Made by a program: the position numbers and the translations under genes. A stretch of DNA of 62,680 bases, counting the filler, from Nemertoderma westbladi (Eukaryota; Animalia; Xenacoelomorpha): NCBI GenBank assembly GCA_032718475.1. It is 3 parts of 3 records of this genome, joined end to end, with 100 filler letters (N's around TTAATTAATTAA, not from the genome) between each part and the next. Parts side by side here need not be neighbours in the genome. Positions count along the whole stretch, not along the records: positions 21,600 to 48,768 come from JAUCBJ010003469.1; 2 more parts are not named here. One strand, given 5' to 3'. Below are positions 12,700-50,975 of the stretch, piece after piece. The notes under the pieces were generated by a model that did not search any database, was not told where the DNA came from, and saw nothing but the letters and a program-made list of their open reading frames with translations. Positions within the stretch are counted from its first letter, which is position 1, and each line of letters opens with the position of its first letter.

Positions 12700-12730
<31 letters not shown>

Positions 12731-29783: not shown

Positions 29784-30270
29784 ATTATGGTAGGCTATTA
29801 ATGTAATATTCACTGTTATTTTTTAAAGATTTATGTCTGTTCGATAATGAATTGTGATTTGACTTTACATGAATTCTATTGCAGATGCTATATGATTGTG
29901 CTGAATATGTGTTTCTTAACTCTGTCACATAATGCATGTTGAAACAACACTCTAACAATGATTACCTCAACAACAAACGAAAACAAACTGGTGTTGTTTG
30001 AAGACTGACAATGTTGTACGTCATATTATGAGTGAAGATACCCCACCCCCCCCCCCCCTCCCAAACGTACTTTGACGATTAACTAGATTTTAATTGAAAA
30101 CGGGTCAGTAATAATAATTATTATATTCATTATATAATCCATATTAAACAATACTACCGGTAATAAGTATGTATATATATATATATGTACTCAATGTCTA
30201 TAGCGGCGATCTGGAGGTCAATGCGTGGGACCCTCACGAGGAACATTGCGGGCGCGGGCTGCCTTTTGGG

Positions 30271-30661
30271 GAGCACCCTGGGCGACCTTGCGGTGTGCAC
30301 CCTGACCCTGGGCGACGTTGAGTGGAGCACCCTGACCCTGGGCGACCTTCAATGGAGCACCCTGACTCTGGGCGACGTTGAGTGGAGCACCCTGACCCTG
30401 GGCGATGTTGAGTGGAGCACCCTGACCCTGGGCGACGTTGAGTGGTGCACCCTGACCCTGGGCGACGTTGAGTGGAGCATCCTGACCCTGGGCGACGTTG
30501 AGTGGAGCACCCTGACCCTGGGCGATGTTGAGTGGAGCACCCTGACTCTGGGCGACGTTGAGTGGACCACCCTGACCCTGGGCGATGTTGAGTGGAGCAC
30601 CCTGACCCTGGGCGACGTTGAATGGAGCACCCTGACCCTGGGCGACATTGAGTGGTGCACC
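30271..30661. repeat. 30-bp minisatellite (GAGCACCCTGACCCTGGGCGACGTTGAGTG), ~13 units
   Basis: Tandem units read directly. Confidence 0.95.
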
Positions 30662-31489
30662 TGTCGTAGCCTTATACTATAAGTAATAGAACCCGTATCA
30701 GCCAACACTTTGGTATGCATGGCTCGCCCCTTTTATAGGACTGTCAGACTGTATGTTAGTACAGTACACCACGGCCTATAAGAAGCCGTGGCCCCATACC
30801 AGTATACAGTAGGCCTATGATATATATATGTTTACTTGCTTATATTATATATATGATTGGTATTAACAATAACATTATTGGATGAATTATACTACATTAG
30901 CATGGTGACGGAGCGTCATTCTTTCGTCCATAACATGGCGCAGTGTGTAGCAGCGTAGCTGGAATTTCGAACAACGAACGAAATATGGCGACGCCATCCA
31001 ACATACGCGAGGAGGACTAGCTTGACCTCAACTCGGATGATATCGAACGCCTAGAATGTCCCGCACTGAAAATACATTGCTCACATGCAGGAATAGCGTT
31101 TGACCCGAAAATGCCGTCGGCAACCCTCCGTAAACGTCTCACGAAAGCCATCCATGAACAGGATGAGTCGGGAGACGATGAGAAACCACTCAACTTAACC
31201 AAACTTATCATCCACTTCGAAGAACGGCAACTCGCTGAGGAGGAGCGGGTCAGGTCAGGTATTCTAGGTCATTGATCAAGAAAACTTGCCACCTCCATGC
31301 AGCATAAAGGAGGTGCCACATGTAGCTGCATAGACCCTCTTACTAGGGCAAATAGAATGGCTTTGAAACGCATAGCCCAATGTGGAAATATACCAAACCT
31401 TAACCTCACTCATGCATTATCAAATAACCACATTTCATTTAAGTACAGGATGCATTGGCTATCTGGCGCGAATTTAAAAAGCCTGATGG

Positions 31490-32343
31490 ATTTATAACCA
31501 TGACGTGCAACACCAACTGGCCAGATATCCAGCCTTCGCTTTTTGAAGGAGTGGTGCTGAAGATCATCCTGACCTGGTCACCCATGTCTTCAGAATGAAA
31601 CTCAAACAACTCATTGATGAAGTGTGGGATAAGAAAATATTAGGGAGTCTGAATGCCCGCATTCATATTGTTGAGTTTTAGAAACGTGGTCTACCCCATG
31701 CCCACAACATTCATGTTGAACACATTTATTTATTATTTATAGTCAAGCGACTTTCAGTAAAAAACCTTACCGGTAGGTATGCACTAAAAACCAGTAACAG
31801 TACAGCAGTAAAAACACAATATATATTGTGTTTTTACTGCTGTACTGATTTAGATTGTCTAGATGTCTAGATTTTTGGGGGTGATCACCTCATGCTTGAT
31901 GCCACGGATGTCAACGTGATCACCAGCTACCAGAATATGCATTACATTGGCGCCCCCGAGGCTGCATGGCGCACCCTGAGCTTCGAAATCACGCAGCAGA
32001 TTCCCCCATTCAGGTTCTCCGAATTTATCTGGAGAATGATCAAATGGTCATATTATGCCAGGGGGCTGATCTTCAAAATGTTCTTTCAGAGAAGTCGCAC
32101 AACACTGAATTAACAGCCTTCTTTAACTATAACGCCACCAATCCTGGGACTGATGTTTCCTACGTAGATTTTCCAAAGAAAGTTACGTTTAACCACTCTA
32201 CGAAGAAGTGGTACAAACGTAAGTGCGGTTTTACAGTCAGGCGTGTTCATACTGTCCATCCTTTGTCCGGTTATGAATTTTACCTGCGACTGTTACTCCA
32301 TCAGAACCATTGCAAGGGGAAAACCAGCTTTCAGGTCAACTGA
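31490..32343 (+). pseudogene. Helitron Rep/helicase remnant
   Basis: MTCNTNWPDI, DHPDLVTHVFRMKL, VEF*KRGLPHAH (HUH motif), YIGAPEAAWR, TELTAFF and FYLRLLLH..CKGKTSF, broken by stops, frameshifts and an internal deletion. Confidence 0.9.
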
Positions 32344-33220: not shown

Positions 33221-33772
33221 GACCAGTTCATATATCGGATTGAGATTCGGATTTGGATTGAGGTTCAGACTAGGAAGGATGGTTCTGTGGTATTAATAAT
33301 AAATACAGTAATTTATTAATGTATCTTACTAAACTATACTGTATCTTACTATATAAAAATTTGAATTTATAATTTTATGTGTTACTTTGACTTCAACCTC
33401 AACAGTTAGTTATCTGAGAGTCGGTATCGGTTCTTACTGGAAAAACATTTGTTTGTTTGTTATTTTACTACTCATTGTAAGAGTCAATAAAAGTGTATAT
33501 TGCTTTAATCCTTAATTATATTGGAATGTAATTAACACTGGAAAAATACCGTATATAAATGACTATAATGGGATAATCAAATCTTGATACATTGACTCTT
33601 ACACCATCCAGTAATATGACCTTTACTTAGATTATACAACGTAGTACAGCTGTTTGTAGGATATAATATTTATTATTCGGTTAGATCAATCTAGAAAATA
33701 TACTACTTAGTCAGATAAAAGTTTACAATTTATTTTGATTCATATCGGACCCTAACATATTGGTGACCCAGA
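33218..33772 (+). mobile_element. Gypsy 5' LTR end and primer-binding site
   Basis: ...CCTAACA (33757), then TAT and TGGTGACCC (PBS at 33761) just before the gag ATG. The left LTR boundary is uncertain. Confidence 0.6.
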
Positions 33773-33773
33773 C

Positions 33774-34670
33774 ATGTCTTTAAACACTTACCGTAAGAGC
33801 CAACTGCAAGAAGTTCTCAGTCAATTACGAGCTGAAAATGACGATTTCAAAATGCCAGCAACGAAAAAGGAAATCATTGAAGAACTTGATAAAGAGAACC
33901 TAACTGTTATTAAAATTCTGCTCAGCCACGCGCAATCAGCTAACCAACAACAACCAATGGCGTCTGGAGGTGAGATCAAACAAAAGGTAAGGTTACCTGA
34001 ATTCTATCCAAAAGACGCACGTGTTTGGTTCCAGCAGGTTGAAGCGGTATTGCTGGGACACAGTCATTCATCTATGAAATCGAATCTATTAGCAGCATTA
34101 CCTACAGAGATAATATTAGATGCAGGTGTCAATGTAACGGATTCTTTTGACATCATTCGGAGCAACATCATCACTCACCTCGCCGATAGTGATGACAGAC
34201 GCTTAAGGAGACTCCTGGCAGAACAGGAGCTCGGCGATCGAAAACCGTCAGCGGCTTTGCGACAGATGTTGCGTCTTGCACCTGGCAACGAGCAGGTTGT
34301 TAGATTGCGATTTCTTGAAATTCTTCCTCCCACTATTAGTATCGTGTTATCAACTTTAGATGACCTTAACCTGGAAAGATTGTCAGAAACAGCAGACAAG
34401 ATGATGGAGCAGCATCAGTCGAAAACAGATCAATCATCTTTATTTCCAGTTGCTCACGTTACCGAACTTGGTGCCCTGCAAGAATCTCAAAGACTCTTAG
34501 TACAATCGCAACAGATGCTTTCTGATCAGATTAACCAAATCAACACACAGCTACGAGCTATGTCATCTAATCGAGAAGATGGTAGAGGTCGTTCATGGCA
34601 ACAACGATCACTAAGTCGGCAAAGAACTCCCAGCCGACGACGTTCTGAATCTCGCTCATATAATCCAACC
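33774..34670 (+). CDS. Ty3/gypsy (Mag-like) gag, interrupted
   Basis: RLPEFYPKDARVWFQQVE and ELGDRKPSAALRQMLRLA motifs with an RS-rich tail. No intact CCHC and no pol follow. Confidence 0.85.
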
Positions 34671-35877
34671 TGTTCGCGCTTTCAGACCTTTGGCAGTTTA
34701 ACCCGCCAAATTAAGATGTCTTCTAGATATTAAATCGTTTTTAGTCTATGACAAGTATTTGATTCACTACACTAGTCGAAACCAATCTGTGCGCGACCAT
34801 TCACCCGCTGGAGATTCCCGGGAGATTGGGTTCGACGGTTTAATTTTATTGCTATGTAAGCCTAATGTATTATTCGACTGACAGTATTATATAATCTCTG
34901 ACAATATTATTCACCTTCGGGAATATTAACAGTTCCTTTAGGACGTGGCGCTTTATCTATATAAACAGAGTTATGACTTAAACTACTCACAACGATATGG
35001 CTTAATTATAATTCACATATATGGCGCATTCTTTAGGCATTGCTTCTTTAACAGACTCACTCATACACAATGCTGCACAATACTGCACACTAATCTGCCA
35101 ATCTTCACTGATTTTAGTCACATATAAAAGGAACACAGGCTGACTCATGTAGGGTCTATCAAATAACATTAGATTCACTTCAAACCACTTTAACATAAGT
35201 CACAATCGTTATTGGTAACCTTTCTCTCTTACCTTCGGTATATCAAGAATATTGGGTTTCGGGGTTATTTATCGTTATTCCAAATATAATAATTCATCAA
35301 CCATATTATGAAGAACTGACAGTAAATAGCAGTATAAAACAACAACTGAACACTGATTGTTATGAGTTTGCAATGTTTCAGCAGTCAGGATGTATGATCA
35401 GTTATCAAGTAGTCGTTAGGTGCGTTAAAGGATATATGTCCTTATAATTAAACCTACTAGTGTAAAACTAAAAACTGAAAACACGGAGGTGCCAAAAGCC
35501 GGTTCTTAGGCTCTGGGCAAAAACATAACACTGCACTACTGAGTTTCTGTATATACCTCCAACACAGAGACAACAAACGCTCTGATTGGTCAACCTGAAC
35601 AACGAGAGAACAAAGAAACAAAGAAACGTCGACGTGGCAATATCAGCTGCTAGCCGTCGTCATGGTAGCGACACTGTTTTCAAGAGTATCGAGCTTTTAC
35701 GTCACAGAATTACGGATTATGTCCTCTAAAGTACAAATACAGAAGAAATAGCGTTTATGTCCGCTAAAATACCAGTACAGCAAGGACACGGCCTTTTTAT
35801 GCCTGGTAAACCAACTACAGAGTATTTTACGGGAAAATAAGGAAAAATAACCGGACAATTCAGCAAAAGCTTTTACA
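34671..35877 (-). mobile_element. 3' LTR (~1.2 kb) of the cargo-bearing BEL/Pao element
   Basis: Minus strand reads GGGAGCGG|TGTAAAAGC at 35885-35869 (BEL-like PPT/LTR junction) and ends ...GCGCGAACA at 34671, with AATAAA near 34845-34850. No second LTR is present to confirm the ends. Confidence 0.65.
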
Positions 35878-35955
35878 CCGCTCCCAGAGAATGGGATTTA
35901 AGTCTATAAAATATACAAAATCACAGTTTCTAAAATATAAAAATACTCTAAACAG

Positions 35956-38900
35956 TTAGTCTTTCTTACGCGGACGGCGTTTACGCAGTTTCTTGAGGTT
36001 AATAAGAGTCCTTTTCTCTTTGGGGCGAGCCACTTTACGAGGAGGGCTGTAGCTCCTAGGCGAAGGGTGCAATATAATTGCATCAGAAGGTGCAGGGTTA
36101 CGATCGGTATACCCGCCGGTCGAAGTACCTGGTTGATTAATATCAACCTCAGTGGAGTGAGGTCTAACGGCCTTTAGAGCGCGTCTTAGGACAGCAGCTC
36201 CTACGGGTCCTTGACGGGTCGTCTGGACACTAGCGGTGGGTGGACCGTGAGTGGTGAGGAACTTTCTCGGTTTAATGGTTCTCTCCAGCTCGCGTTCTCG
36301 GGTTCGATATTCATATGGGCGCCGAGATACTTCCTGGAGTTCAGGATGCGAGTTCACGAAAATGTCACCATACTCAGGGTCCTGACGGATAAAATTGATC
36401 AGGTGATACGTGGTTATATCATTGGGGTTAACGTTTCTAAGGTATTTCCTGACAAACTTGGTGGAAATACACTCACCAACACGCTTGATTAACTCGTAAC
36501 TTGGTACGCGTGTTTTCTGTTCAATCGACGCGAATAGGTAAGGATGGAACGCGTAAACTCCCTCGTAAGCTCGTCCAGGGTAATAGCGATGTCTGGATTC
36601 GCAATGTAAATCTGCGTTCGCTTCCCAAGCTCGGATGTATCGCAGGGTGATCATCTCGTCTACGCTCTCTAAATCGCGATTAAAGGGACAATTGTAACTT
36701 TCGTGTCCTTTAAGTTGGCAGTAGTGACATTGAGTCATAAATTGTGGGCAGACGGCGAATATATGAGAGTTATTAAGCCGGCAATAAGCACAATATATTT
36801 CCATCATCGGTTGTTCGAGGAAATAGGAACAAGGTACGCTCGAGTCGAGAGGAGTGAAGTGGTCTCTCGATGCGCATAATCGACAACGTTTTCGGGAAAC
36901 GTAGTTGGCGTGTCGATAATCGTACGCTGTGAGACGCTGTGGACCTTGATACCATTCTATGACATAATCATTGTCACTGCTCCGAGAAGCCGTAGGTTGA
37001 ATCGCTTCTGATTCCAAGCATACTGGTTCATCCTCCAGCTGCATAGACGAAGTGGGTGTGTCGGTTTCCGTAAGTGGACCCACTGTCTGTATTTCCACGA
37101 CAGAATAACCTGTAGGTATTCGGGGTCTTTGTATAACAGATGAATGTGAATTCTGTATACAAACGTCTTGAAACACGGCAAATCCAGCGCTACTCAGTTT
37201 CTCCGCAGCTGAGTCTCTAAGACTGAGTTTGGTCAGCGCGCGATCCTTGAACTGACTATCGACGTTACGGAACGGAGTCAGAAAGCGCCGGAAACATTCG
37301 AAACGTATGAACTTATTGTGTTCGTCTAACTTGGCGAGTTTAGTTCCAAGTATTAACGGATGAGCGCGTATGGTACGACTGCACACATCGGCTAGCCAAC
37401 CGGCAAGTGCTGCGTTTTCAAAGATCGTGTATATAGCTAAGGAAGGGCGAAGTGGAACACTCATAAAGCTATATACGGCACCAGGCGCAGTTAATGGTCC
37501 ATCAAAATATAAACGAGAGTAATGATCTCCATATACTTGCTGGTAATTTATAGGATTTCCAACTTTGAAATTCCAACCATATTCTTGAAAGGCAAGATGT
37601 CCGATGGATGTCCGTTGTACTTTAGTAATGCCGCTGGGTGTATTGGCATACATAGTGCGAAAGAAACCTCGGCCTTCGGCCCAAGGAGCAATCAGCTGAG
37701 TATCAATGAAAGGGTATGGAATGTTCTCCATATTCCGGAAGTCGTTTTGGAGATCTCCATAAACAGCTGAGCCGATTTTTAGAATTCTTTCGTTAAACAA
37801 CATTGCGAGTACAGGTTGGGGTAACATTGATCCATCGATACCCATGGCCGGTTTGCGTTCGGTGTCGGTGACGTAACGCTGCGCGAGTTCGAATTGTCCA
37901 TGTCGAAGTTTCTTTTGTATCTCCGTAAGAGTTTCAAAAGAATAATCAATCACGTCAGAACACGCTCGAGTGAATACGTGGGTAGAACCAGCGAGTCCTC
38001 GTATATGTATCATTCGCGTAGTTCCTAATTCTCCCACCGGAACGCTACCTTCGTTGTCGTAAGTAACAACGCCATACATCTCGATAACGTTAAGAGTCTC
38101 GTTCCATTCTTTAGTGGCGTTTTCGAGAGTCATTCCCACTGGATGCCACAAAGTAGCGCACTCGTTAGCATTGGGTAAATCTCCATACTTTAAGCATTGT
38201 GTAGTATAGGTTTCCACATCTCCATATCGTTTTATTCTTTCTTCCTCGAATAACACGTCGAGATTCCAGTGCACCAATCGAGTTTTAATAAATCCATCAA
38301 GATTGTACGGAGGTGCTATTTCTTTCTCTATTCTAGAAATATTATACGGTTTTCTAAATGAGTTTAGTTTAACTAGCTGATCTAGGTGTTTTTGTAGTTG
38401 TTCGAGTTCGACAAGGTCGAGAGGATTGATCAATGGTAGAAACTTCAGACTATGCGTAGGATCTTCGGGTTTCACCATGTAATATTGCTTTAAATTGACG
38501 TAATAAGGATGATCCTTAATTCCATAAAATGAGTCCGGCAAAGGTCTAGCGCGTATGTTAATATCGTGCACCATGCGACGGACAAGATCCGCTCTATTGT
38601 CCGGAGGCTCAACAAGTACGCCATCGACACGAGCAGCCTCGACGGGTGGACGTTGTAGCATGGGAGCGTCAGCAACGAGCTCTTGAGATCTGAGATCAGT
38701 ATTAACCGGTTGAGGCTGTACCGTAGCAAAGAGCTTGTCTTTAAAATGAGGAACCATCGAGGGGTGAAGAATCGTTTTGGAATAGAGATCCGTTACGAGA
38801 ATTTGAGCTTCTGGTTGGGCTAAAGCTGCTTCTTCCCTCTCAGTCAGCTCTATATGTCTCTCCTCGAGCTGATTTTCCTCCGCTTGTTGCTGCAAGCGCT

Positions 38901-39378
38901 CGTCCAGGAATTCCTGTAAAGAGTAGGTTCGTCCACGTTCGATGTCCTCCTCTAGATTTTGTATTTCTCTATCGAACTGGGGTAAAGCCAGTTCCTTCAC
39001 CGCTTGGACTTGTTGCTGCAATTTACGTTTCTCCAAGCAATCGTAAGTTCCTTTCCCGATTTTCTGCCGAATAGCGTCCAATGCATTTCGTATCACGCTC
39101 TCTTCGACTTCTGTAACAGGTTGGATCGGAGGAAGGCCAGGACGGTTGTAGGGGTTAAACGGTGATATTAAATGACCGCGTCCTAGTCCAGCGAGGTAAG
39201 GTTGGCGAATATCCAACGAACCCACTACCGGAGCGCCACCAATCAACTGTTCAGGTAACACTAGATCTTTGAACAGTGAGTACAGTTCGGGAGGATCCGT
39301 AATACTATTAGGATCTAGAGTTTGAGGTATCACTGGTGAATGGGGAGGTCTGACCGAGTATTCCGGAACTCTGATCAT
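35956..39378 (-). CDS. BEL accessory ORF3, ~1140 aa: coiled coil, DEDDy 3'-5' exonuclease (WRN/Mut-7/EXD-like), zinc knuckles, basic tail
   Basis: Uninterrupted and intronless; first ATG at 39378. ExoI VTYDNEG, ExoII LPQPVLAMLFNERILKIGSAVYGDL, FIDTQ, SIGHLAFQEYG, ExoIII-like PLRPSLAIYTIFE. Cys/His units CRLCASRDH, CAYC-H-C and CHYCQLKGHESYNC. Ends LKKLRKRRPRKK. Confidence 0.8.
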   Translation of the reverse strand: MIRVPEYSVRPPHSPVIPQTLDPNSITDPPELYSLFKDLVLPEQLIGGAPVVGSLDIRQPYLAGLGRGHLISPFNPYNRPGLPPIQPVTEVEESVIRNALDAIRQKIGKGTYDCLEKRKLQQQVQAVKELALPQFDREIQNLEEDIERGRTYSLQEFLDERLQQQAEENQLEERHIELTEREEAALAQPEAQILVTDLYSKTILHPSMVPHFKDKLFATVQPQPVNTDLRSQELVADAPMLQRPPVEAARVDGVLVEPPDNRADLVRRMVHDINIRARPLPDSFYGIKDHPYYVNLKQYYMVKPEDPTHSLKFLPLINPLDLVELEQLQKHLDQLVKLNSFRKPYNISRIEKEIAPPYNLDGFIKTRLVHWNLDVLFEEERIKRYGDVETYTTQCLKYGDLPNANECATLWHPVGMTLENATKEWNETLNVIEMYGVVTYDNEGSVPVGELGTTRMIHIRGLAGSTHVFTRACSDVIDYSFETLTEIQKKLRHGQFELAQRYVTDTERKPAMGIDGSMLPQPVLAMLFNERILKIGSAVYGDLQNDFRNMENIPYPFIDTQLIAPWAEGRGFFRTMYANTPSGITKVQRTSIGHLAFQEYGWNFKVGNPINYQQVYGDHYSRLYFDGPLTAPGAVYSFMSVPLRPSLAIYTIFENAALAGWLADVCSRTIRAHPLILGTKLAKLDEHNKFIRFECFRRFLTPFRNVDSQFKDRALTKLSLRDSAAEKLSSAGFAVFQDVCIQNSHSSVIQRPRIPTGYSVVEIQTVGPLTETDTPTSSMQLEDEPVCLESEAIQPTASRSSDNDYVIEWYQGPQRLTAYDYRHANYVSRKRCRLCASRDHFTPLDSSVPCSYFLEQPMMEIYCAYCRLNNSHIFAVCPQFMTQCHYCQLKGHESYNCPFNRDLESVDEMITLRYIRAWEANADLHCESRHRYYPGRAYEGVYAFHPYLFASIEQKTRVPSYELIKRVGECISTKFVRKYLRNVNPNDITTYHLINFIRQDPEYGDIFVNSHPELQEVSRRPYEYRTRERELERTIKPRKFLTTHGPPTASVQTTRQGPVGAAVLRRALKAVRPHSTEVDINQPGTSTGGYTDRNPAPSDAIILHPSPRSYSPPRKVARPKEKRTLINLKKLRKRRPRKKD

Positions 39379-39386
39379 GGGTTTAT

Positions 39387-40211
39387 TCAATGATCGCTTA
39401 AGGGTCGCGCGACCGTAGGCGATACGTCGAAAAGGTTACGCTCGAAACTCCCATAAGTATATCGCGTAAAACTGTGTTTAGCGCAACGTCTCCGAGGATG
39501 TTTATGCCTTTCGATTTGCTGGTTAGGTCTAGGGCATTCGTCACAGTAATACCAAAGACGCACGTCTTGAAGGGGAAACGCGGGTGATCGCTCTCCAGTT
39601 TTACAATATTCCTCCATCTGTTCGAAGCTATCTGGAACGACAGGTAGCGGTCGATCGGCGGTAAGATACATCATCGTAAAATAGAGCCGTTTGAGTTCCA
39701 TTATAGGATCTGGATGTATACCTTGGGGATATCGAGTTTCGAGGTTTTGTTGACTGGCAACATTGAGATAGGTCTCTCGTAAGAATTCTAGATAATCGTT
39801 GAAACCGTTACGTTTATCAGGTTCTTCAACGTCTTCTCTTTCGAGTTTGTTTCGAATAGAGTTCTCGTGTTCTATTCTCGATTTATCGTTTCGACTCCGC
39901 TGGGTATGATATTTAAATAAAACCATTTCCCGTTCGGTGTCTACATCGTCCGTATCGTGTAAATCAATAGGATGACCAGTGGTCAAGAAGTCCATATACG
40001 TACCATTACGATGAGTGTAGCGAGCAGTGAACTTTCTATAATCCAATTCACGCGTAAGTTGCTCCTGGGACATTGGCGGTTCGATATAACGACCATCGTC
40101 CTCTGTAGGAGTTGGATCAGCGTCGCCGCGTATTAAGCTATCGACAAATGCTTGTAAAGGTAGAGTATATCTCTCCCTGATACCAAGATCATCTTCTATT
40201 AATTCAGTCAT
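39387..40211 (-). CDS. BEL accessory ORF2, 274 aa, unknown function, C-terminal Cys/His cluster
   Basis: Intact ATG-to-TGA non-repetitive ORF with an acidic N-terminus and YYCDECPRP...HKHPRRRCAKH. Confidence 0.75.
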   Translation of the reverse strand: MTELIEDDLGIRERYTLPLQAFVDSLIRGDADPTPTEDDGRYIEPPMSQEQLTRELDYRKFTARYTHRNGTYMDFLTTGHPIDLHDTDDVDTEREMVLFKYHTQRSRNDKSRIEHENSIRNKLEREDVEEPDKRNGFNDYLEFLRETYLNVASQQNLETRYPQGIHPDPIMELKRLYFTMMYLTADRPLPVVPDSFEQMEEYCKTGERSPAFPLQDVRLWYYCDECPRPNQQIERHKHPRRRCAKHSFTRYTYGSFERNLFDVSPTVARPLSDH

Positions 40212-41019
40212 ATCTGCTATACAAGTTCACCAATATTATAATGAGTTTATATATCGTTAGGCGAGCGGGCGTCGCTGCCTATTTCTCCCTTGCCCCCGGA
40301 CAGTAAGAGATTCTCAGCGCCGATGTACCGCTGTAGCTGTACTTTCGCCAACGACGTAGCCGTACAACGACAACGATAACCGGCACAAGTCACTCCACTG
40401 TCCGTCCCAAAGGCTTAGATGTACTTCAGGTATTCCTTGGAGAGTTAGGTTACTTTACGATTGCGACTAGCTACTGTAAACACACTTTAGCAGTAACATT
40501 CACCTATAAACTCACAAATACCACACAACTGGTCACAACTACGCACATTCGGGCCATTTGTCCGTTAGTCAATGCCTTCCAGAATGTCACTATATTATTA
40601 TGTATCCTTGGATACTAGCAGTGCGCTATTTATTCCCTATGCTATTCAATGGGACAAGCTTTCTATTGTTAGTTTAACTCAATTCTAATTCTAGCGTGGT
40701 TGTTGCTATGGTGACATTATGCAAAGCTAGCGGTAGAATTAGGGTGATTCCAATGCATACAGATCTGGGATGTTATTTAATAGTAATTCTTTAATAGTCA
40801 ATGTCCTGTTTATACATGACTTTACGAATTTTATCGGCTATTAACTATGTTTGGGAGACTTTCGTACACGCATACGCATAATAATATAAATCTCCGCTCC
40901 CTTGATCTATTAATTAATGGAATTTTGGGAATGTTATAAATCGCGTAAAATGGCAATTTATTAAATTCATTAAAAGAAATGAATTTAAATTTATTCCCTG
41001 AAATTTTATTATTTGATAA

Positions 41020-41345
41020 TTAAATGGACATATTTTGATTCTAGAACTTGTCTAGGGACACAAGATCCTTAATTCTAAGAAAATTGTCTCTTTAAGAATA
41101 TCGGTAAATGCTACGATATCTTAATTGACTAGAATTGTTGAAGGATCTGAATTTTACAGATTTTGACTTATTTGATTTGCAAACATTAACTAATTAATAT
41201 TTGAGATGGGCACCGATTTATTCCAGAACTTGTCTGGGGACGTTAACCACTGATTCTATAATTTGTCTTTCAAGTATATCGGTGGGTGCCACGATATCTT
41301 AATCGACTAGAATTACAGATGGTCAAAGGGTTTAACAGATTTATT
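41020..41345 (-). ncRNA. Tandemly duplicated structured RNA element (two ~145-nt copies)
   Basis: Copies at ~41020-41165 and ~41203-41345 form the same hairpins with compensatory substitutions (see findings). Confidence 0.55.
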
Positions 41346-41861
41346 CTGCGTTATACGCTACTGTTAAATGGACATCACGCTACTATATGTATTATTTAAT
41401 ATACGGTATGAGAGCAATATCGCACGAAGCAATGTCAGTGTGAAGAGGCAAGTCGTTTCCAAGGTCTACCCAGAGCTTGGTTTAGCCGAGACACGAGGAT
41501 CTGAACTTTGCATTCCTAATACTCTGCCTACCAATAATACTTAAATACAGTAGTGGCTTTATTGTACTTTAATAAGTACAGACATTTCATCTTACCGTAG
41601 TTACATATTTATAATATAATACGGACAGTAAGGAAAGAGAAAAAATAATTATTTCTTCGCCGTCTCACTAAATATAATATAAGTAATTACGTACGTAATA
41701 AACACGAATATATTACACTATTCTACAAAATAATCGCCAAAATAATATTCTACTAAATTAAATAAAACGATTGTAATAAAATTACATAGTAATACATACA
41801 TAAATATAAAAATGATAAAATAATATAAAATAATAGAGCCACACGCCCACTCCGAACGATA

Positions 41862-43510
41862 TTAAGTTGGGGAGTCCCTAGATGTCGGTTGGATTAGGGA
41901 AGTGGTCGTGGGAAGAGTTTCTTGCCTTCCATAGTTTCCGGAGAGCTCTCTGTCTCTTTCTAGTAAACATAAACGTCCCACTGGGCGATTGAGCTGTTGA
42001 GTCTCAAAGACTATCCCTGGTTTCTTAAAGTTCCGCCGCATGACGATGAGCTCTACTGATCGCACCAAACCATCGCTCGAGATATAAGTCTCGATGATAC
42101 GTCCTGTTTGCCATCGCTTACGTGGGAGATCGGGGTCCACAATAAGCACCATGTCTCCAGCGCTGACGTTTTCTTGCTGCGCAAACCACTTAGTTCGAAG
42201 TTGTAGAGTGGGCAGGTAATGTTTCTCGAAATGGTCAGCGAAACGACGGGATAGCAACTGCATAAGTTGCCAGGTTCGACGGCAGTACTCGTCTCCGTCT
42301 GTAATCTCCGATCGTGGGAGCATGGCTACGGGTTTCTTCAGTAGAAAGTGCGCGGGTGTTAACGCTTCCAGGGAATCAGGGTTTGAAGAGACTGGCATAA
42401 GCGGTCTTTCGTTGAGATAGGCGGCGATTTCCTCCATTAACGTCCGCAATAGTTCGTCGGTGAGATAAGCGCGACAAGGCACAATAAAGTGGAACGCAGT
42501 CTTCACGCTCCTAATCAATCTCTCCCAACTTCCTCCCCACCAAGGGGCGTCGGCGGCGTTGAAGGTCCAACTAGACGCTGTTATCCTTAGCTGATCGTCC
42601 ACCTGTCTTTTGTTCCAGTCCTTTACGTAAGCTTGAATTTCATTGTTGGCGCCAATGAAGTTCGTTCCCTTATCCGATCTCATCGTGTTACTGGTTCCGA
42701 AGCGAGCGATCTGTCGTCGTAAACTCAACACGAAGCTGTTGGTGGATAGATCGTTTACCATATCGAGATGGATAGCTCTACAAGTCATACAAACGAAGAT
42801 GACACACCATCTCTTGACTATAGTCCGGGCACGATATACTTCAATAGGGCCAAATAAATCCACACCGGTATTAGTAAAGGGTGGTTCATAGAAGCTTACT
42901 CTTTCCCTAGGTAATTCTGCCTCTCGCTGTGTTAAAGGCCTACTGAATGCTTTCCTACAGGGTATGCAGTTCCTAAGAACTTGGTTCAGAGCCCTACGGG
43001 GTTTATAAAAATAGTAGCGAGTTCGAATTTCGCTCAGAACTCGTTCTCTACCAGCATGGTACAGTTTGCTATGAACATCTACAATCATCTTGATTTGTAT
43101 GTCAAGATTTCTAATGAGGATGGGAAACTTAGTGTCAAAGGATAATGGAGCGTTGGTCAATCTACCTCCAACACGTATTAACCCATCTATCATGGTACTA
43201 GAGAAGCGATCCCTTAAGCGCATCTGTGGATTTCTTAACAACAGGAAATACTTATCGGAATCCTCATAGCATTGTAGGAGTCTCAGCATCTGTTTGTTGG
43301 TTTCATCATGCTCTTGGTAACTGATCTTTTCCTTTAGAAACCTGTCGGGTATCTTGTATTTAGGAAGATCTTTAATAACATGGACTCGTGCAGATGTTGA
43401 TGGAGCATCATCACTATTGGTCTTTGTTCCGGAGTAACGATGATGAAAACATCGTTTCAAATAGGTAACAGCCTTACAGAGCCGATTCCAGGAACTGTAG
43501 TGACGTATCG
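41862..43510 (-). CDS. BEL/Pao pol C-terminal part (integrase), 5'-truncated
   Basis: YSSWNRL; DGLIRVGGRL..APLSFDTKFPIL; zinc finger H..LYHAG...CIPC; core TGVDLFGP, RSDKGTNF, APWWGGSWERLIRSVK, NERPL, LTPAHFL; C-terminal WQTGRI...DGLVRSV. Confidence 0.95.
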
Positions 43511-43848
43511 CTAACAGTGTCAATTCGCTAAGGCTCCGCCAACTTCGTGGCTCGCCCCACATAGACATAAAGACATGTAATAAATACCACTGGCAGCGAC
43601 CTGACCAGAGGTAAAACGTCTGCATGAGAAGTAATCTCTGCAGAGCTCCAAAGCTACTAGTTGGAATAAACAGGTAACAAATATTATATACTCAGGGAAG
43701 GCTAATGCAATTATTATGAGCCAATGTGAGATCACTCACTCCATTGATGTTCCCTAACGACAAATAAGTTCAAATACAGGTATGAAAGCACCGAAAAATA
43801 CAAGTTTGATACGCTTGGTGCAACTCGTATATTGCGTTTTTCCTTTCT

Positions 43849-44200
43849 CCCCGGCCCCACCCACAGCACAAGCCCCGACCCCTGCCCCTGCAATGCCTTC
43901 ACCCCCAGGCACTCCCCCAGCCCCAGCCCCGACCACGTAAACATTAAAGTTGTAGAGAGGGTCTGCGGGAACAATGCGGGCGATGTGAAGGCGAGCGGCT
44001 TCTGGCACACCCTCGACGTTTCCCACTTTCGTCACCCTGACTTTCCCCAGCCGAGGATGTACCACCCTCTATCTCCATACTGTTGAACCTCCCTGTTTAT
44101 GTGGTCCTGGGCCTCAAGATGTGGGACCACCTTTTGTTGCGTCTGAAAATATTAAACATAAGTTCATTATAAAGTTAACCCTTTGAGAACGTAGGCCCTA
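43849..44200. repeat. ~350-bp near-identical duplicate of 45829-46180
   Basis: CCCCGGCCCCACC...TAGGCCCTA is present twice in direct orientation with only a few differences. Confidence 0.9.
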
Positions 44201-44222
44201 TAAAGCTAGTGAGCAGTTTGTT

Positions 44223-44746
44223 TGTGGGGCGAGCCACGAAGTTGGCGGAGCCTTAGCGAATTGACACTGTTAGGGGGTGGGTCAATTTATGCAAATAGTT
44301 GTCGTCGTCGTCGTCGTCGTCGTTGTCGTCGTCGTCGTCGTCGTTGTCGTCGTCGTCGTTACGATTTTGACATGCTAATAACTTTGTCGGATTTAAAGCT
44401 GCCAAGTTGAAAATTTGTAGGTATCAATATGAGCAAAAGTTGAGATTTTTGAGAGACTTTCAGACACCATCAGTGCAATGGTCTCCCGCTAGAGGGCCAC
44501 ATGTCTAAACATTAAATGCCCTCCCATTTCTTTGCTTTTAATCCGTTTAAGCTGAAACTTGGCAGATATGTATTAGACCATTAGGTGTGACTTTCAAAGG
44601 AGGCGAATCCATCTGCAGTTCTCCAGTCTGCCGCTAGAGGGCCAACGTGACAACGACAACTATTTGCATAAATTGACCCTCCCCCTAACAGTGTCAATTC
44701 GCTAAGGCTTCGCCAACTTCGTGCTGCGCGAAGTCCCCACTTCGTG
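44223..44746 (+). mobile_element. HINE/DINE-1-like non-autonomous Helentron element
   Basis: Subterminal inverted repeats (44235-44305 and ~44650-44723), an internal (GTC)n microsatellite, and a 3' hairpin CGAAGT-CCCC-ACTTCG. Confidence 0.65.
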
Positions 44747-45712
44747 TAATGCCTCGTATGCCATATGTGTGCAGTTTGTTTAGAAGAATATTGTGTTGTA
44801 AAGTATCAAATGCCTTTTTAAGATCTAATGATATCAAAAAGGCCGATTCTTGCAGTTCTAGAATATTTTGTTGTCTTTCAGTTACAGTCAGTAGGGCGTC
44901 TGTTGTTGTGGAGTGTTTTCTGAATCCGTATTGATACTGTGAGAGTATAGAGTACTTGTCTAAATAAGAAATTAATTGGGAATTTATTACGCGTTCAAAT
45001 ATTTTGCTGAAAACAGACAGTAATGATATTGGCCTGTAATTATTTTTATCAGATGGGTCGCCGGACTTTGATTGGTGTAATTTTGGCTGATTTAAGAGTG
45101 GTGGGGAATGAACCGGTTTTAATAGAGAAATTTATAAGATATGTTAGATGGGGTTCGATATCGTGCTGCTACTTTAACTATGGTTATAGGAAAGCTATCC
45201 TATGTTGCGGTTGAGGAGTTAAGATCTAATATATTGTAAATGGTTTAAGCGTTTGAGGTTTGAACAACTGAGAACGAGTTGGGTTTTTTATGATTTATGT
45301 AACGTGTTGGGTTATTGGTTGTAGTAGGTATGTCTCATGCAAATCGAGATCCTATTGTAGCAAAGTGGTTATTAAATACACTGCAAATCTCCTTGGTATC
45401 AGTAGTCTCATGTTCATTACCGTTATTGTCCGTTAAAATTAGTTTCTTAGGTGACGCTTTTCTTTTTGTTCGGTGTAACGCTGAGTTTATAGTAGTCCAT
45501 GTTTTTCGCATGTTGTTCTTGTTTTTCTCAAATTAATTTGCATAATATGTTCTTTCGGCTAATTTTATGATTTTTGTGAATTTATTACAGTATTTGTTAT
45601 ATTCGTTAAGTTTTTCATCAGTTTGGTTTTTTGATAGAGCTGCGTACATACTATTTTTTTATATTCATGATTTAATTATTCCAGAGGTCATCCATGGCTT
45701 TTTATCATCCAT
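44747..45712 (-). pseudogene. CR1/L2-type LINE reverse transcriptase remnant
   Basis: Minus strand reads KKPWMTSGIIKS...NYRPISL...QYGFRKHSTT...DLKKAFDTLQHNILLNKLHTYGIRG with disruptions. Confidence 0.85.
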
Positions 45713-47109
45713 TTTCATCCATGGCTCCGCCCCCGGCTCCACCACTGGCCCCGCCCCCGTCCCTGCCTCTGGCCCCACCCCGGCCCTGCTGGCCCCACCC
45801 CTGCCCCGCCCCCCGGCCATGGCCCCAGCCCCGGCCCCACCCCCAGCACAAGCCCCGACCCATGCCCCTGCAATGCCTTCACCCCCAGGCACTCCCCCAG
45901 CCCCAGCCCCGACCACGTAAACATTAAAGTTGTAGAGAGGGTCTGCGGGAACAATGCGGGCGATGTGAAGGCGAGCGGCTTCTGGCACACCCTCGACGTT
46001 TCCCACTTTCGTCACCCTGACTTTCCCCAGTCGAGGATGTACCACCCTCTATCTCCATACTGTTGAACCTCCCTGTTTATGTGGTCCTGGGCCTCAAGAT
46101 GTGGGACCACCTGTTGTTGCGTCTGAAAATATTAAACATAAGTTCATTATAAAGTTAACCCTTTGAGAACATAGGCCCTATCCTATACGGGCCTGCCACA
46201 TTTAGAGGGTACTGTGGAAAAGCAATATTATATTTATATACTGCCATCTGACATGTCCAGTAAGCCATATAAAGGCAGCCAATAACATGTCCATTTTTAG
46301 TGTGTACATGCTACGCCGACAAGCGACAACCACTGCCAACAACAGCAAATATTAAAATGTAACCTAAGTTCGTTACTCTCGTGTATTGTTTTTGGTTAGA
46401 ATAAACTTCCACTGTAACCTGTTTCTTTCCCTCAATTAATAAATAACACAAGCTGGCAAGCCTGGAGGGTTCACGGTCCTCCTACTTAATCAGTACAATA
46501 ATAATACGTTTTCGTTCGAGTAGGCCTATGTTTCCTTTCACTTGTTCCCATCGTAGGCGACCTCATGCTCATCCCACCACGACCACGACCACCAGTTACG
46601 AGTTGGGTAGGCGTCTACCGGCAACCGGTAAGTAATTACGCGCCACACGACGTCATCCCGCCATCCGCCAACATTTATACCGGTACGGTAAGCCTACCAC
46701 CTACCGGCTGGCTACCATCGCACCGTAGGTCTACCGCCTACGCGTACCGGTCAACCGGTAACGGTAGGCTACCGCGTACCGGTACAGCGGTACTCAAAGT
46801 CGTACCGGTATTGTCGTAATTGACAAATTCAGGATTAAACCGTAACCCGCTCCGGTACCGGTACCATATGCATCTGAACGACTGGACGGTTAATCTCATA
46901 GCATAGCTGCATAGGCCTACCGGTAGTCAGTGCGAAGTCGCCTGCGAACATGGCGAAATATTATATTTACTGCTAGGGCTAGGCTAGGACCTACTGCTGT
47001 ACTGACCTATGACAGTATGAAGATAGGCAGATAGGCCTACAGTGGTCAGGTAGTACCGGTCCGGTATGCCTACTACAGGCAGACAATCAGACAGTACTAG
47101 CAGTGCTAA

Positions 47110-48768: not shown

Positions 48769-48868
48769 NNNNNNNNNNNNNNNNNNNNNNNNNNNNNNNN
48801 NNNNNNNNNNNNTTAATTAATTAANNNNNNNNNNNNNNNNNNNNNNNNNNNNNNNNNNNNNNNNNNNN
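48769..48868. other. Artificial contig linker (N44-TTAATTAATTAA-N44)
   Basis: Identical to the linker at 21500-21599. Confidence 0.95.
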
Positions 48869-50040
48869 TTCCTTCGGTGTCTGGGGTTGGTGAGTCGGTT
48901 CCTTCAGTGTCTGGAGTCGGCGAGTCGGTTCCTCGAGTGTCTGGGGGCGGTGAGTCAGTCAGTTCAGTGTCTAGAGTCGGTGAGTCGGTTTCTCAAGTGT
49001 ATGGAATCGGTGAGTCGGTTCCTCAAGTGCCTGGGGTTGGTGAGTCGGTTCCTCAGCTGTCTGGAGTAGGTGAGTCGGTTCCTTCGGTGTACGGGGTCGG
49101 TGAGTCAGTTCCTTCACTGTCTGGAGTAGGTGAGTCGGTTCCTTCGGTGTCCGGAGTTGTGTCTGGAGTAGGTGAGTCGGTTCCTTCAGTATCTGGATTC
49201 GGTGAATCTGTCCGTTCAGTGTCTGGAGTCGGTGAGTCGGCTCTTCAAATGTCTCGTGTCGGTGAGTCGGTTCCTCAGGCCTCCGGGGTCGGTGAGTCAT
49301 TCCGCTCAGTGTCTGGAGTCGATGAGTCGGTTCCTCCAGTGTCTGGAGTAGGTGAGTCGGTTCCTTCAGTATCTGGATTCGGTGAATCTGTCCGTTCAGT
49401 GTCTGGAGTCGGTGAGTCGGCTCCTCAAATGTCTCGTGTCGGTGAGTCGGTTTCTCAGGGGTCTCGGGTCGGTGAGTCATTCCGCTCAGTGTCTGGAGTC
49501 GATGAGTCGGTTCCTCGAGTTTCTGGAGTCGGTGAGTCAGTTCCTTCGGTGTTAGGGGTTGGTGAGTCTGTCCGTTTAGTCTCTGGAGTCGGTGAGTCGG
49601 CCCCTCAAGTGTCTGGAATCGGCGGGTCGGTTCCTTCATTGTCTGGAGTCGGTGAGTCGGTTCCTCAAGTGTCTAGGGTTGGTGAGTCGGTTCCTGAAGA
49701 GTATGGCGTCGGTGAGTTGGTTCCTTATGTGTCTGGAGTCGGTGAGTCAGTCCCTTCGGTGTCTGGAGTCGGTGGGTCGGCCCCTCGGGTGTCTGGAGTC
49801 CGTGGGTCGGTTCCTTCATTCTCTGGAGTCGGTGATTCGGTCCCTCGAGTGTCTGGGGTTGGTGAGTCGGTTCCTCAAGAGTATGGTGTCGGTGAGTTGG
49901 TTCCTTCAGTGTCTGGAGTCGGTGAGTCAGTCCCTTCAGTATCTGGAGTCGATGAGTCGGCCCCTCAAGTGTCTGGAGTCGGTGGGTCACTTCCCTCGGT
50001 GTCTGTTATCAGTGTGTCGGTCCCTTCGGTGTCTGTTGGT
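48869..50040 (+). repeat. Degenerate 30-bp minisatellite (VSGVGESVPS units), in frame with the CRE ORF
   Basis: GTGTCTGGAGTCGGTGAGTCGGTTCCTTCA-like units, about 38 copies. Confidence 0.9.
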
Positions 50041-50975
50041 ATTGGTGTGTCGGGCACTCAAGGGTCTGGGGTCGGCTCGTCAGGGCCTCCAATGTCTGGA
50101 GCTGGCACGTGTCCAGTATGTTTGAGGGTCTTTGGAATAAAAGCCAATGGGACTCTGCGCACACATGGCCCACCTGCCAACCGGTGCCTGGGATCTAGTG
50201 TCCAGCCAGATGCTTCAGCCTCCTTGCAAGGTCCCCCCGTGCCCATATTCCTCTCACAACCTCCACAACATTCATCAATAATAGACCATCCACTACCTTC
50301 TGGCTCTCTCACAAGTCACCACCGGTTAGACCCTCCCTCGACTAATGACTCTTACGTCAGTGACATTTTCTGCGGCAGTTTACTGGACGAAACCGTTATT
50401 GCACAGAACATCACTTCCAGTACGACTCTGATTGCCCCATCATCCCCGCCGGAGGTCCCCACCCCGGCACTCCCAGACTTCCACTCATGCACGCTCGCGT
50501 TTAACTGGAACGGTATTCCCGGTGAGGTTTACCTGGGTCGCCTCAAACTAGCATACGACGAGATAGCTCATTGGAACTCCAGTTTGTTCGAGATTCCTCG
50601 ATCTCAGGCGGGTAAAGAGTTTATATCGGCGATGACTAAACTGCTAAATGCGTTTGGCGAGGGTTCCAGTATGGAGGGCTTGGCGATGTATGCAGTCATG
50701 GTAATGCCCAAATTAATGCTGCAAGCTGCGACGAGACCGGTTGAACCTGGTGGCAGTGTGAGTAAGACTCTGCAGAGGAGGTTGGAACTATGGCGGGAAG
50801 GAAACATTGAGGAACTCTTACTTGAAGGGCGCGCTCTGGTTGCTCGCAGGAAGGGCCTCGGGAATAAAATACACCCGGACCATTCCCGGAAGCGGTTTAT
50901 TCACGCCATGAACAAAGGCCGAGTTGGCGCCGCGGTAGATATCGTTGAAGATGGCACTGGTTCCAGAGTCCTTAT
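48877..50975 (+). mobile_element. CRE-clade non-LTR retrotransposon, N-terminal ORF portion, truncated before RT
   Basis: Zinc finger CPVC...LRTHGP..NRC.GS, then AYDEIAHW..LFEIP...AGKEFI...MVMPKLMLQ...RRLELWREGNIEELLLEGR, as in CRE-like elements. The ORF runs into unrelated repeat DNA after ~50975. Confidence 0.72.

What the first reader, a model, noticed from the sequence alone, without database searches (positions are those of the whole stretch)
34671..43510. BEL/Pao retrotransposon with a two-gene cargo (zinc-finger ORF and exonuclease/zinc-knuckle ORF) where env would sit
Seen: on the minus strand, integrase (ends 41862) is followed by a 1.65-kb spacer, an intact 274-aa ORF, an intact ~1140-aa ORF, a PPT-like GGGAGCGG about 70 nt after the stop, and a TGT...ACA LTR. 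All are co-oriented and intronless, so the ORFs appear to lie inside the element. Known: BEL elements usually end soon after integrase or carry a captured envelope gene. By eye, neither ORF has a signal peptide or transmembrane anchor. Inference: this is an accessory RNA-processing module, for example a counter-defence against piRNA/siRNA silencing or an RNP/cDNA maturation factor. From memory (unverified), an RNase D-like domain has been reported in some nematode Cer BEL elements, so novelty must be tested against those.
Basis: partly seen in the sequence, partly recalled or inferred. Interest (0 to 1): 0.92.

Follow-up and report, generated by a model that had tools for sequence, protein, structure and literature searches.

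The report
BEL retrotransposon with its own exonuclease
A very abundant jumping gene of an animal carries, where an envelope gene would sit, a large extra gene kept under purifying selection, with an RNase D-like nuclease domain and zinc knuckles, which likely trims RNA ends to blunt the host's RNA-based silencing; we found such cargo in print only for a different retrotransposon group, in rotifers.

Summary
Observation mostly confirmed. 34671-43510 (-) is the 3' part of a high-copy BEL/Pao LTR retrotransposon: BEL-type integrase, 1,650-nt spacer, 274-aa and 1,140-aa frames, PPT, 1,207-bp LTR. A TIR fragment cuts off its 5' half, so LTR pairing and TSD are untested. The site is empty in two other samples.

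Main correction: the two frames are likely one gene of about 1,400 aa. The window copy has a frameshift near 39400, where most spanning contig depth in 4 of 4 covering runs puts the frames in register.

Residues ~430-665 are RNase D/DEDDy-like on several weak but concordant tests (likely D-E-D-E plus Tyr), followed by nucleocapsid-like CCHC knuckles. No signal peptide or membrane anchor. Both frames show purifying selection (25 of 38 and 7 of 9 listed variants synonymous; about 30% expected). Copies lacking the nuclease also exist. 'Zinc-finger ORF' is unsupported beyond a Cys/His cluster.

DEDDy ORF3s are published for rotifer Juno/Vesta elements, and this scan noted Rrp6-like ones in other genomes; ten literature searches found none in BEL/Pao. 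The recalled nematode precedent stays unchecked. Function is inferred: counter-silencing (0.45). New variant of a known kind.

The parts
34671..35877 (-). 3' LTR, 1,207 bp, TGT...CGAACA (its partner LTR is not in the window)
   Evidence: Sequence. Depth rises from about 120 to above 1e5 in the bin holding 34671, and flank contigs stop matching at 34670 in X1 and X3.
35878..35885 (-). PPT-like GGGAGCGG abutting the LTR
35956..39378 (-). 1,140-aa frame (P0001); likely the distal part of one ~1,400-aa accessory gene
   Evidence: 25 of 38 listed variants synonymous against 30% expected
37339..38136 (-). RNase D/DEDDy-like 3'-5' exonuclease domain (residues 415-680). Likely ExoI D441/E443, ExoII D542, D559, ExoIII Y650/E654
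   Evidence: the ExoI register is the least secure
36688..36885 (-). Three Cys/His knuckles: CX2CX4HX9C (832-850), CX2CX5HX4C (863-877), canonical CX2CX4HX4C (884-897)
   Evidence: zf-CCHC_3 E 0.005, below the cut-off; retroviral nucleocapsid E 0.003 with the two-sequence profile
35959..36288 (-). Basic, proline-rich C-terminal tail (26 K+R against 7 D+E in residues 1031-1140) ending in an NLS-like basic run
   Evidence: NLS function is inferred
39379..39435 (-). Junction of the two frames: frameshift in the window copy at about 39400; the downstream frame is already open from 39435
39387..40211 (-). 274-aa frame (P0002) with a C-terminal Cys/His cluster; likely the N-terminal part of the accessory gene
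   Evidence: 7 of 9 listed variants synonymous; no family match
40212..41861 (-). 1,650-nt non-coding spacer, 35% GC, with a diverged ~100-nt direct repeat (41035-41136 / 41217-41314), a TATA-like word at 40253 and an AG just before the ATG
   Evidence: promoter or splice use is not shown
41862..43510 (-). 3' end of pol: H2C2 zinc domain, integrase core and DUF5641 C-terminal domain, BEL/Pao type
   Evidence: DUF5641 E 1.7e-19, Integrase_H2C2 E 1.2e-7; motifs shared with BEL/Pao integrase consensus records
43511..43561 (.). 51-bp copy of a terminal inverted repeat of a small TIR element; it marks where the retrotransposon is cut off
   Evidence: 100% to 44223-44273; 27 contigs in X1 and 10 in X3 continue with other letters at 43512
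33756..34670 (+). Target of the insertion: DUF7041 gag-like frame of another element, interrupted by the LTR end

Best explanation
This is the 3' half of an abundant BEL/Pao LTR retrotransposon whose third-gene slot holds what is likely one large accessory gene, broken by a frameshift in this copy, encoding an RNase D-like domain with zinc knuckles that is predicted to be a 3'-5' RNA exonuclease and likely acts in trans to blunt host RNA silencing or surveillance. Shown: position between integrase and PPT/LTR, multicopy state of every part, purifying selection, sequence likeness to RNase D-type exonucleases, nucleocapsid-like knuckles, no membrane anchor, and copies that lack the nuclease segment. 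Inferred: (1) the gene is expressed apart from Gag-Pol, from a spliced or internally started RNA; (2) D441, E443, D542 and E654 with Y650 bind two metals and cut; (3) the knuckles hold single-stranded RNA and the basic tail takes the protein to the nucleus; (4) the substrate is host guide RNA, its precursors or element-derived trigger RNA. Odds: anatomy about 0.9, exonuclease fold about 0.9, one gene in most copies about 0.8, catalytically active about 0.6, counter-silencing as the role about 0.45.
For: Inside the element: co-oriented between a BEL integrase and PPT-LTR. Summed contig depth in X1 is 1.2e5 to 1.5e6 in all 21 bins touching 34671-43510, against 120-380 in the three left-flank bins (not a copy number).

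Selection: among listed variants 25 of 38 are synonymous in the long frame (expected 0.30, p 7e-6), 7 of 9 in the short frame (0.30, p 0.004) and 6 of 7 in pol (0.35, p 0.009), with no stops.

One gene: the junction length difference holds 12,010 of 13,246 depth (X1, 3 contigs), 18,543 of 20,697 (X3, 6 contigs) and 864 of 864 (X5, 1 contig), and 5.35 of 5.35 (X4, 1 contig). It brings the frames into register.

Exonuclease: 24 of 30 Atlas feature hits carry PF01612, score 0.93. NCBIfam RNase D E 0.005. A blind search of 151 bacterial genomes gave 14 weak matches, 10 of them on RNase D-type domains. hhalign probability 92%, score 48.5 against a maximum of 17.2 in 60 column shuffles. K534, D542, L643 and Y650 are invariant across 24 aligned sequences. 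The one database homologue has the same nuclease-then-knuckles layout and the same Y-x3-E.

Role (circumstantial): env is optional and no such gene is part of the BEL/Pao description (PMC8742986), so it is accessory. DEDDy genes were acquired repeatedly by unrelated retroelements, and cellular relatives (mut-7, EXD1, Maelstrom) work in small-RNA silencing (PMC5408684). An RNA-virus exonuclease serves immune suppression in arenaviruses (PMC7968707). Nuclease-less copies (joints 36090/36092/36102/36302 to ~38852) are what a shared, trans-acting benefit would allow.
Against: No expression, localisation, activity or small-RNA data were obtained.

Each exonuclease test is weak alone: no Pfam hit for the window domain, and the HMM-HMM local match covers only 46 columns around ExoII. 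ExoI is ambiguous: MAFFT with RNase D proteins put it at D478, which lacks the Glu; pairwise scores were 10 against 7, and an ungapped ExoI profile ranked the D441 site 6th in the protein. ExoIII has Glu in place of Asp and ranked only 3rd in an ungapped scan. Selection within the nuclease domain alone is not significant (6 of 9 synonymous, p 0.065).

Only 11 contigs over four runs show the junction variant, at much lower depth than neighbouring bins. Variants used are the 40 best-supported rows of about 1,370 and of 450. No single contig spans pol to LTR. Nuclease-less copies fit any trans-acting or dispensable function equally well.
Confidence: 0.45

Rival explanations
1. The protein is an active nuclease that serves the element's own replication. 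The knuckles bring it to element RNA or the virus-like particle, and it trims RNA 3' ends, primers or cDNA ends, or proofreads for an unusually long element.
For: The knuckles most resemble retroviral nucleocapsid. 3'-end processing is the first role suggested for rotifer DEDDy ORF3s (PMC5408684) and for Dada transposon DEDDy domains (PMC3706591). The remnant alone is 8.84 kb without gag, protease or RT, against 4.2-10 kb for whole belpaovirids (PMC8742986), which recalls ExoN and genome growth in nidoviruses (PMC7968707).
Against: Described BEL/Pao elements replicate without it (PMC8742986). It is separated from pol by 1,650 non-coding nt, not fused. Nuclease-less copies have multiplied.
Confidence: 0.28
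2. The domain has the nuclease fold but no activity. The protein is an RNA-binding adaptor or decoy (as Egalitarian, EXD1 or metazoan Maelstrom are) that carries element RNA to the germline or titrates host silencing factors.
For: ExoIII Asp is replaced by Glu, ExoI is uncertain, and there are long insertions (about 29 aa after the third strand and about 40 aa before ExoIII). EXD1 and Maelstrom are inactive derivatives (PMC5408684). Egalitarian and EXD1 appear among the tied weak fold matches.
Against: Acidic residues are kept at all four likely positions, with the Tyr, and the same pattern is in a homologue only 30% identical. None of the 9 listed variants in the domain touches these codons (small sample).
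Confidence: 0.2
3. The cargo is a captured host gene or a nested element that rides along without benefit to the retrotransposon, or the two frames are truly separate genes.
For: No contig spans the whole element. The region is full of nested insertions. About a tenth of the spanning depth in X1 and X3 reads like the window at the junction, and a stop followed 8 nt later by ATG could allow re-initiation.
Against: Synonymous excess among element copies in both frames. No internal LTR, TIR or poly(A) border among the repeats found. Intronless. No close relative in the protein searches.
Confidence: 0.07

Closest known systems
DEDDy exonuclease ORF3 of bdelloid rotifer LTR retrotransposons Juno and Vesta, shared with Athena/Terminon elements (Rodriguez, Kenefick, Arkhipova 2017, PMC5408684; main text read, supplement not read)
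   Same: An RNase D-like DEDDy ORF downstream of pol in the env position; no TM domain; altered acidic signature; function untested.
   Different: Here the element is BEL/Pao, not a rotifer-specific Juno/Vesta lineage. The signature is likely D-E-D-E (there DEED). The gene is very large (about 1,400 aa) with nucleocapsid-like CCHC knuckles and a basic tail. The family is highly multicopy and shows synonymous excess, whereas the env and GDSL ORF3s sequenced in that paper looked neutral. Homology to the rotifer ORF3s was not tested (sequences not available here).
Belpaoviridae (BEL/Pao; ICTV profile PMC8742986, whole text read; de la Chaux and Wagner 2011, PMC3118150, passages and supplement searches)
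   Same: BEL-type integrase at the end of pol, PPT, TG...CA LTR of 1.2 kb, animal host.
   Different: The third gene is a nuclease-knuckle protein, not env. The remnant alone nearly fills the stated 4.2-10 kb range. Neither text mentions an exonuclease (0 occurrences in PMC3118150).
Cellular DEDDy exonucleases: RNase D, Rrp6, WRN/EXD2, Nibbler/Mut-7, EXD1, Egalitarian
   Same: Motif order and spacing: DxE strand, K..D (ExoII), DTQ, PL-x6-Y-x3-acid.
   Different: ExoIII Glu; long insertions; no HRDC detected; CCHC knuckles fused. No subfamily could be assigned (fold matches tied at Z 3.0-3.9 on a model seeded with RNase D).
P0004, an unnamed 648-aa protein from a public assembly
   Same: DxE, D, DTQ and Y-x3-E nuclease followed by three CCHC-type knuckles; 30% identity over 150 aa.
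   Different: Lacks the long N-terminal part; genomic context not obtainable, so whether it is element-borne is unknown.
Dada DNA transposons with a DEDDy domain (PMC3706591, passages) and ExoN of nidoviruses and arenaviruses (PMC7968707, passages)
   Same: Mobile or viral genomes carrying a DnaQ-like 3'-5' exonuclease.
   Different: Different element classes. The Dada domain is inside the transposase; the viral ExoNs are DEDDh.

Membership tests
Belpaoviridae (BEL/Pao) | BEL/Pao-type integrase at the C-terminus of pol | tested here: met
   DUF5641 E 1.7e-19 and Integrase_H2C2 E 1.2e-7. Window motifs WERLIRSVK, RAIHL and GTNFIGA occur 13, 105 and 50 times in the BEL/Pao consensus file of PMC3118150; no non-BEL control file was searched and no tree was built.
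Belpaoviridae (BEL/Pao) | LTR with TG...CA ends, 0.2-1.2 kb, preceded by a PPT of about 10 nt | tested here: met
   1,207 bp, TGT...ACA, 8-nt PPT-like word abutting; boundary at 34670/34671 matched by empty-site contigs
Belpaoviridae (BEL/Pao) | Two LTRs, PBS and target-site duplication | not testable with these tools
   5' half absent from the window; no genome held; run contigs too short
Belpaoviridae (BEL/Pao) | gag and pol order PR-RT-RH-IN; RT phylogeny | not testable with these tools
   Only the last ~550 codons of pol are present
env-bearing BEL/Pao elements | Third gene with signal peptide and membrane anchor | tested here: not met
   Maximum 19-residue hydropathy 1.21 and 0.46; polar N-termini; no glycoprotein family hit
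DEDDy 3'-5' exonucleases | ExoI D-x-E on the first strand | tested here: inconclusive
   D441/E443 favoured by pairwise and global HMM alignment and by strands predicted at 432-440 and 453-461 without N-terminal alignment rows (pLDDT under 50). An alternative register at D478 arose; scores 10 against 7.
DEDDy 3'-5' exonucleases | ExoII Asp with flanking K and DTQ motifs | tested here: met
   K534, D542 and D559 align with RNase D; probability 92%, score 48.5 against shuffle maximum 17.2
DEDDy 3'-5' exonucleases | ExoIII Y-x3-D | tested here: not met
   Y650 is in register but the fourth acid is Glu (E654), as in P0004. Filed therefore as DEDDy-like, not canonical DEDDy.
DEDDy 3'-5' exonucleases | DnaQ-like fold | tested here: inconclusive
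   Unseeded model pLDDT 32. Seeded model pLDDT 51 with best Z 3.9, rmsd 4.4, 103 aligned; circular because RNase D rows were in the alignment.
DEDDy 3'-5' exonucleases | Metal-dependent 3'-5' exonuclease activity | not testable with these tools
   needs an assay
Rrp6 / RNase D subfamily | HRDC domain after the nuclease | tested here: inconclusive
   Not detected with a 27-sequence bacterial RNase D HRDC profile or Pfam; a divergent one is not excluded
Juno/Vesta-type DEDDy ORF3 | Common ancestry with the rotifer retroelement DEDDy pool | not tested

The most novel reading that the evidence does not exclude
A BEL/Pao lineage has replaced env with a ~1,400-aa dedicated anti-silencing enzyme that fuses an RNase D/Rrp6-like nuclease to Air2/nucleocapsid-like zinc knuckles, a one-protein mimic of the host's nuclear RNA surveillance module. 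It works as a public good that let the family reach very high copy number and spawned nuclease-less cheater copies. It would be a directly testable retrotransposon-encoded suppressor of piRNA/siRNA defence, and the first exonuclease cargo in this family that we could find.
Probability: 0.3. Interest if true: 0.85.

Novelty: new variant of a known kind. Interest (0 to 1): 0.58.

Why it matters
Whether animal retrotransposons encode active counter-defences against small-RNA silencing is an open question, and the function of DEDDy ORF3s has stayed untested since their description in low-copy rotifer elements. This family offers a high-copy, insertion-polymorphic case under purifying selection, with natural copies that have and lack the nuclease, in a different LTR superfamily. 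That extends the convergent capture of DEDDy nucleases to BEL/Pao and gives a concrete protein to assay.

Tried and rejected
Homologue searches: three word-index searches found nothing beyond P0004; the exhaustive search of 1.84 billion representatives gave one hit. Related loci were not found in metagenome or viral contigs, and plasmids gave one chance match. PDB sequence searches gave no nuclease hit and no hit for the integrase at E 0.01.

The second is weak and seeded with RNase D rows, so its fold matches are not counted as independent evidence. Atlas hits for the 274-aa frame are unnamed and below the recognition threshold.

Runs: no RNA holder listed (X4 is only guessed to be RNA). X7 (organism C) gave one low-depth contig over 37379-37584 and says nothing on other species.

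Other scans: the sigma-70 promoter scan is irrelevant to an animal and matched chance. Rfam gave nothing inside the element. No second LTR in the window. D505-T-E507 was considered as ExoI because it tops an ungapped scan; it was rejected because it lies only 37 residues before ExoII (57 in RNase D) and aligns after the third strand in P0004.

Dropped rows: the two variant rows at 39397 and 39408 (junction zone, frame ambiguous) and all non-coding rows were left out of the synonymous count.

Literature: searches found no exonuclease in a BEL/Pao element. Repbase, Dfam and GyDB could not be searched, and PMID 10984449 is not held.
Full report
1. Observation. The spacer is 1,650 nt. GGGAGCGG lies 70 nt after the last stop and abuts TGT at 35877, and the repeat ends CGAACA at 34671. 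Base shuffles of the cargo region never gave a stop-free frame of 274 aa (0 of 300; maximum 264). The host is an animal: exons of an MRCK-type kinase gene (C1, PH_MRCK, CNH) lie at 10295-18802. No whole genome is held.

2. The element. The pol remnant carries Integrase_H2C2 (E 1.2e-7) and DUF5641 (E 1.7e-19). Its core motifs recur in the BEL/Pao integrase consensus file of PMC3118150 (no non-BEL control searched). At 43511 the element is cut off by a 51-bp copy of a TIR also found at 44223-44273, and 27 contigs in X1 and 10 in X3 continue there with other letters. So gag, protease, RT, the 5' LTR, PBS and TSD cannot be examined. The LTR end interrupts a DUF7041 gag-like frame at 33756-34733. 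In X1 a 2,091-nt contig matches the flank over 34068-34670 and runs on for 1,488 other letters; in X3 a 686-nt contig does the same. This fixes the boundary and suggests that the insertion is absent in those samples (inference: recent and polymorphic; the flank could also belong to another copy of the target element). Summed contig depth in X1 is 1.2e5 to 1.5e6 in all 21 bins touching 34671-43510, against 120-380 in the three left-flank bins. It is not a copy number, but every part, cargo included, is highly repeated. No contig spans the element, so linkage rests on the window itself and on tiling; an X5 contig bridges the spacer and the start of the short frame (40077-40489).

3. One gene rather than two. 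Over 37300-39560 only three indel rows reached 20%: a compensating pair at 38842-38844 and one at about 39400. The latter holds 12,010 of 13,246 spanning depth in X1 (3 contigs), 18,543 of 20,697 in X3 (6 contigs) and all of it in X5 (1 contig); it also holds all of it in X4 (1 contig). X7 does not cover the site. The downstream frame is open from 39435, and by frame arithmetic the majority reading runs from the short frame into the long one, giving about 1,400 codons. The window copy is thus most likely broken by a frameshift there. About a tenth of the spanning depth in X1 and X3 reads like the window, so the split form may be a real minor variant. Caveat: only 11 contigs show the variant, at far lower depth than neighbouring bins.

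4. Selection. Of the coding variants listed (40 rows of about 1,370; 40 of 450), with two junction rows dropped, 25 of 38 in the long frame are synonymous against 0.30 expected from the same base changes at random sites (p 7e-6). The counts are 7 of 9 in the short frame (p 0.004) and 6 of 7 in pol (p 0.009), and none makes a stop. The nuclease domain alone gives 6 of 9 (p 0.065). The cargo is therefore kept as protein about as pol is. Joints from 36090, 36092, 36102 or 36302 to about 38852-38859 (X1, X3) and from 36986 to 39837 (X5) show copies lacking the nuclease segment; their reading frame was not established.

5. The protein. Pfam does not recognise the window domain. Five weak lines agree on RNase D/DEDDy. 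(a) 24 of 30 Atlas feature hits for residues 400-680 carry PF01612 at score 0.93. (b) NCBIfam RNase D scores E 0.005. (c) A blind search of 151 proteobacterial genomes gave 14 matches at E 0.017-0.09 in 13 genomes, 10 of which fall on RNase D-type domains. (d) A profile of the window domain with its one homologue matches a 30-sequence RNase D/Pol I exonuclease profile at probability 92%, score 48.5 against at most 17.2 in 60 shuffles, over 46 columns. (e) That homologue, P0004 (E 5.5e-7 among 1.84 billion representatives), has clearer motifs, gives the same Atlas family and has the same nuclease-then-knuckles layout. Lines (b)-(d) all rest on the ExoII region.

The likely catalytic set is D441, E443, D542, Y650 and E654, that is D-E-D-E with Tyr. 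ExoII is secure. ExoIII is in register in two alignments but has Glu. ExoI is the weak point: one search placed it at D478, while and the low-confidence strands favour D441. Folding did not help: pLDDT 32 unseeded, 51 when seeded with RNase D C-terminal halves, best Z 3.9 with rmsd 4.4 over 103 residues, no Foldseek match at E 0.001. Three Cys/His knuckles follow at 832-897; the profile hits retroviral nucleocapsid at E 0.003 and Lin28 and Air2 more weakly. No HRDC was detected. The tail is basic. There is no signal peptide or membrane segment by hydropathy. The 274-aa frame has no family match.

6. Mechanism. Shown: an accessory, selected, soluble nuclease-fold protein with knuckles in the env slot. 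Inferred: expression from a subgenomic RNA (a TATA-like word at 40253 and an AG just before the ATG are present, neither tested), RNA binding by the knuckles, nuclear import and 3'-5' trimming. I commit to counter-silencing in trans (0.45) because the gene is dispensable in described BEL/Pao elements, such nucleases were captured repeatedly by unrelated retroelements, their cellular relatives act in small-RNA pathways, and nuclease-less copies have multiplied. Rivals: processing of the element's own RNA or cDNA (0.28), a catalytically dead RNA adaptor or decoy (0.20), neutral passenger or separate genes (0.07). None of these was tested directly.

7. Comparison with what is known. PMC5408684 (parts 1-3 of 5 read, covering the main text, plus legend passages; supplement not read) describes DEDDy ORF3s in rotifer Juno and Vesta elements with a DEED signature, states that DEDDy exonucleases had not been reported in retrotransposons before, and does not treat BEL. 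The ICTV Belpaoviridae profile (PMC8742986, whole text) lists gag, pol and optional env, 4.2-10 kb. PMC3118150 (passages; supplements searched for motifs, file 9 gave only a header row; the element sequences in file 1 were not screened) has no mention of exonuclease. Passages only were seen of PMC6431247, PMC6338049, PMC5718144, PMC2774666, PMC11662393, PMC3706591, PMC11599104 and PMC7968707. Ten searches found no BEL/Pao exonuclease. The library lacks most subscription papers and all repeat databases. Earlier notes of this scan report Rrp6-like ORF3s in LTR elements of other genomes (e1-7470661, e1-7392337, e1-9570289; unchecked). They prompted the HRDC test, and none shares short words with this protein.

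8. Verdict. A real feature and a new variant of a known kind: DEDDy-like cargo in the env slot, here in a BEL/Pao family, as one very large knuckle-bearing protein under selection. Interest 0.58. The most novel reading, a dedicated anti-silencing nuclease, has probability 0.3 and would merit 0.85.

Noticed in passing
window 10295-20287 (-): Exons of a host MRCK-type kinase gene (C1_1, PH_MRCK and CNH matches). Its 5' exons would lie at higher coordinates, so the retrotransposon may sit in or upstream of this gene.
   Followed up: partly
window 33756-34733 (+): DUF7041 gag-like frame of another element, used as the insertion target; uninterrupted in contigs of X1 and X3.
   Followed up: partly
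window 44235-44723 and 43511-43561: Small element with 75-bp terminal inverted repeats; a lone TIR piece marks the cut in the retrotransposon, as an adjacent deletion by a DNA transposon would leave.
   Followed up: partly
window 36090-38859 and 36986-39837: Several distinct joints in other copies skip the nuclease segment; they may be deletion derivatives or a related subfamily that never had the nuclease.
   Followed up: partly
window 35877 to 35066: One X5 contig joins the LTR start back to an inner LTR position with 9 letters between, suggesting LTR-in-LTR or tandem LTR copies.
   Followed up: no
window 43849-44201 and 45829-46181: 353-bp direct repeat, 98.6% identical, flanking the TIR element and a LINE RT fragment.
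   Followed up: no
window 44694-45131 (-), 55680-56264 (-), 60374-61018 (-): Decayed non-LTR retrotransposon pieces: RVT_1 matches at the first two; the third has no Pfam match.
   Followed up: no
window 1691-2552, 15501-17500, 30215-30724, 48817-50100, 51436-52880, 56186-57379, 58029-59500: Many minisatellite arrays (units 15-41 nt), some giving long repetitive frames; 56186-57379 is an inverted array forming a large foldback.
   Followed up: no
window 31787-31858: Near-perfect hairpin giving sub-threshold miRNA-family matches on both strands; probably a palindromic repeat.
   Followed up: no
P0004 (unnamed assembly, contig 9,449 bp): Only database relative: DEDDy-like nuclease with Y-x3-E and three CCHC knuckles. 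Its context would show whether this is a wider element-borne family. Both it and the window domain have an unnamed 213-aa eukaryotic Atlas cluster as first hit.
   Followed up: partly
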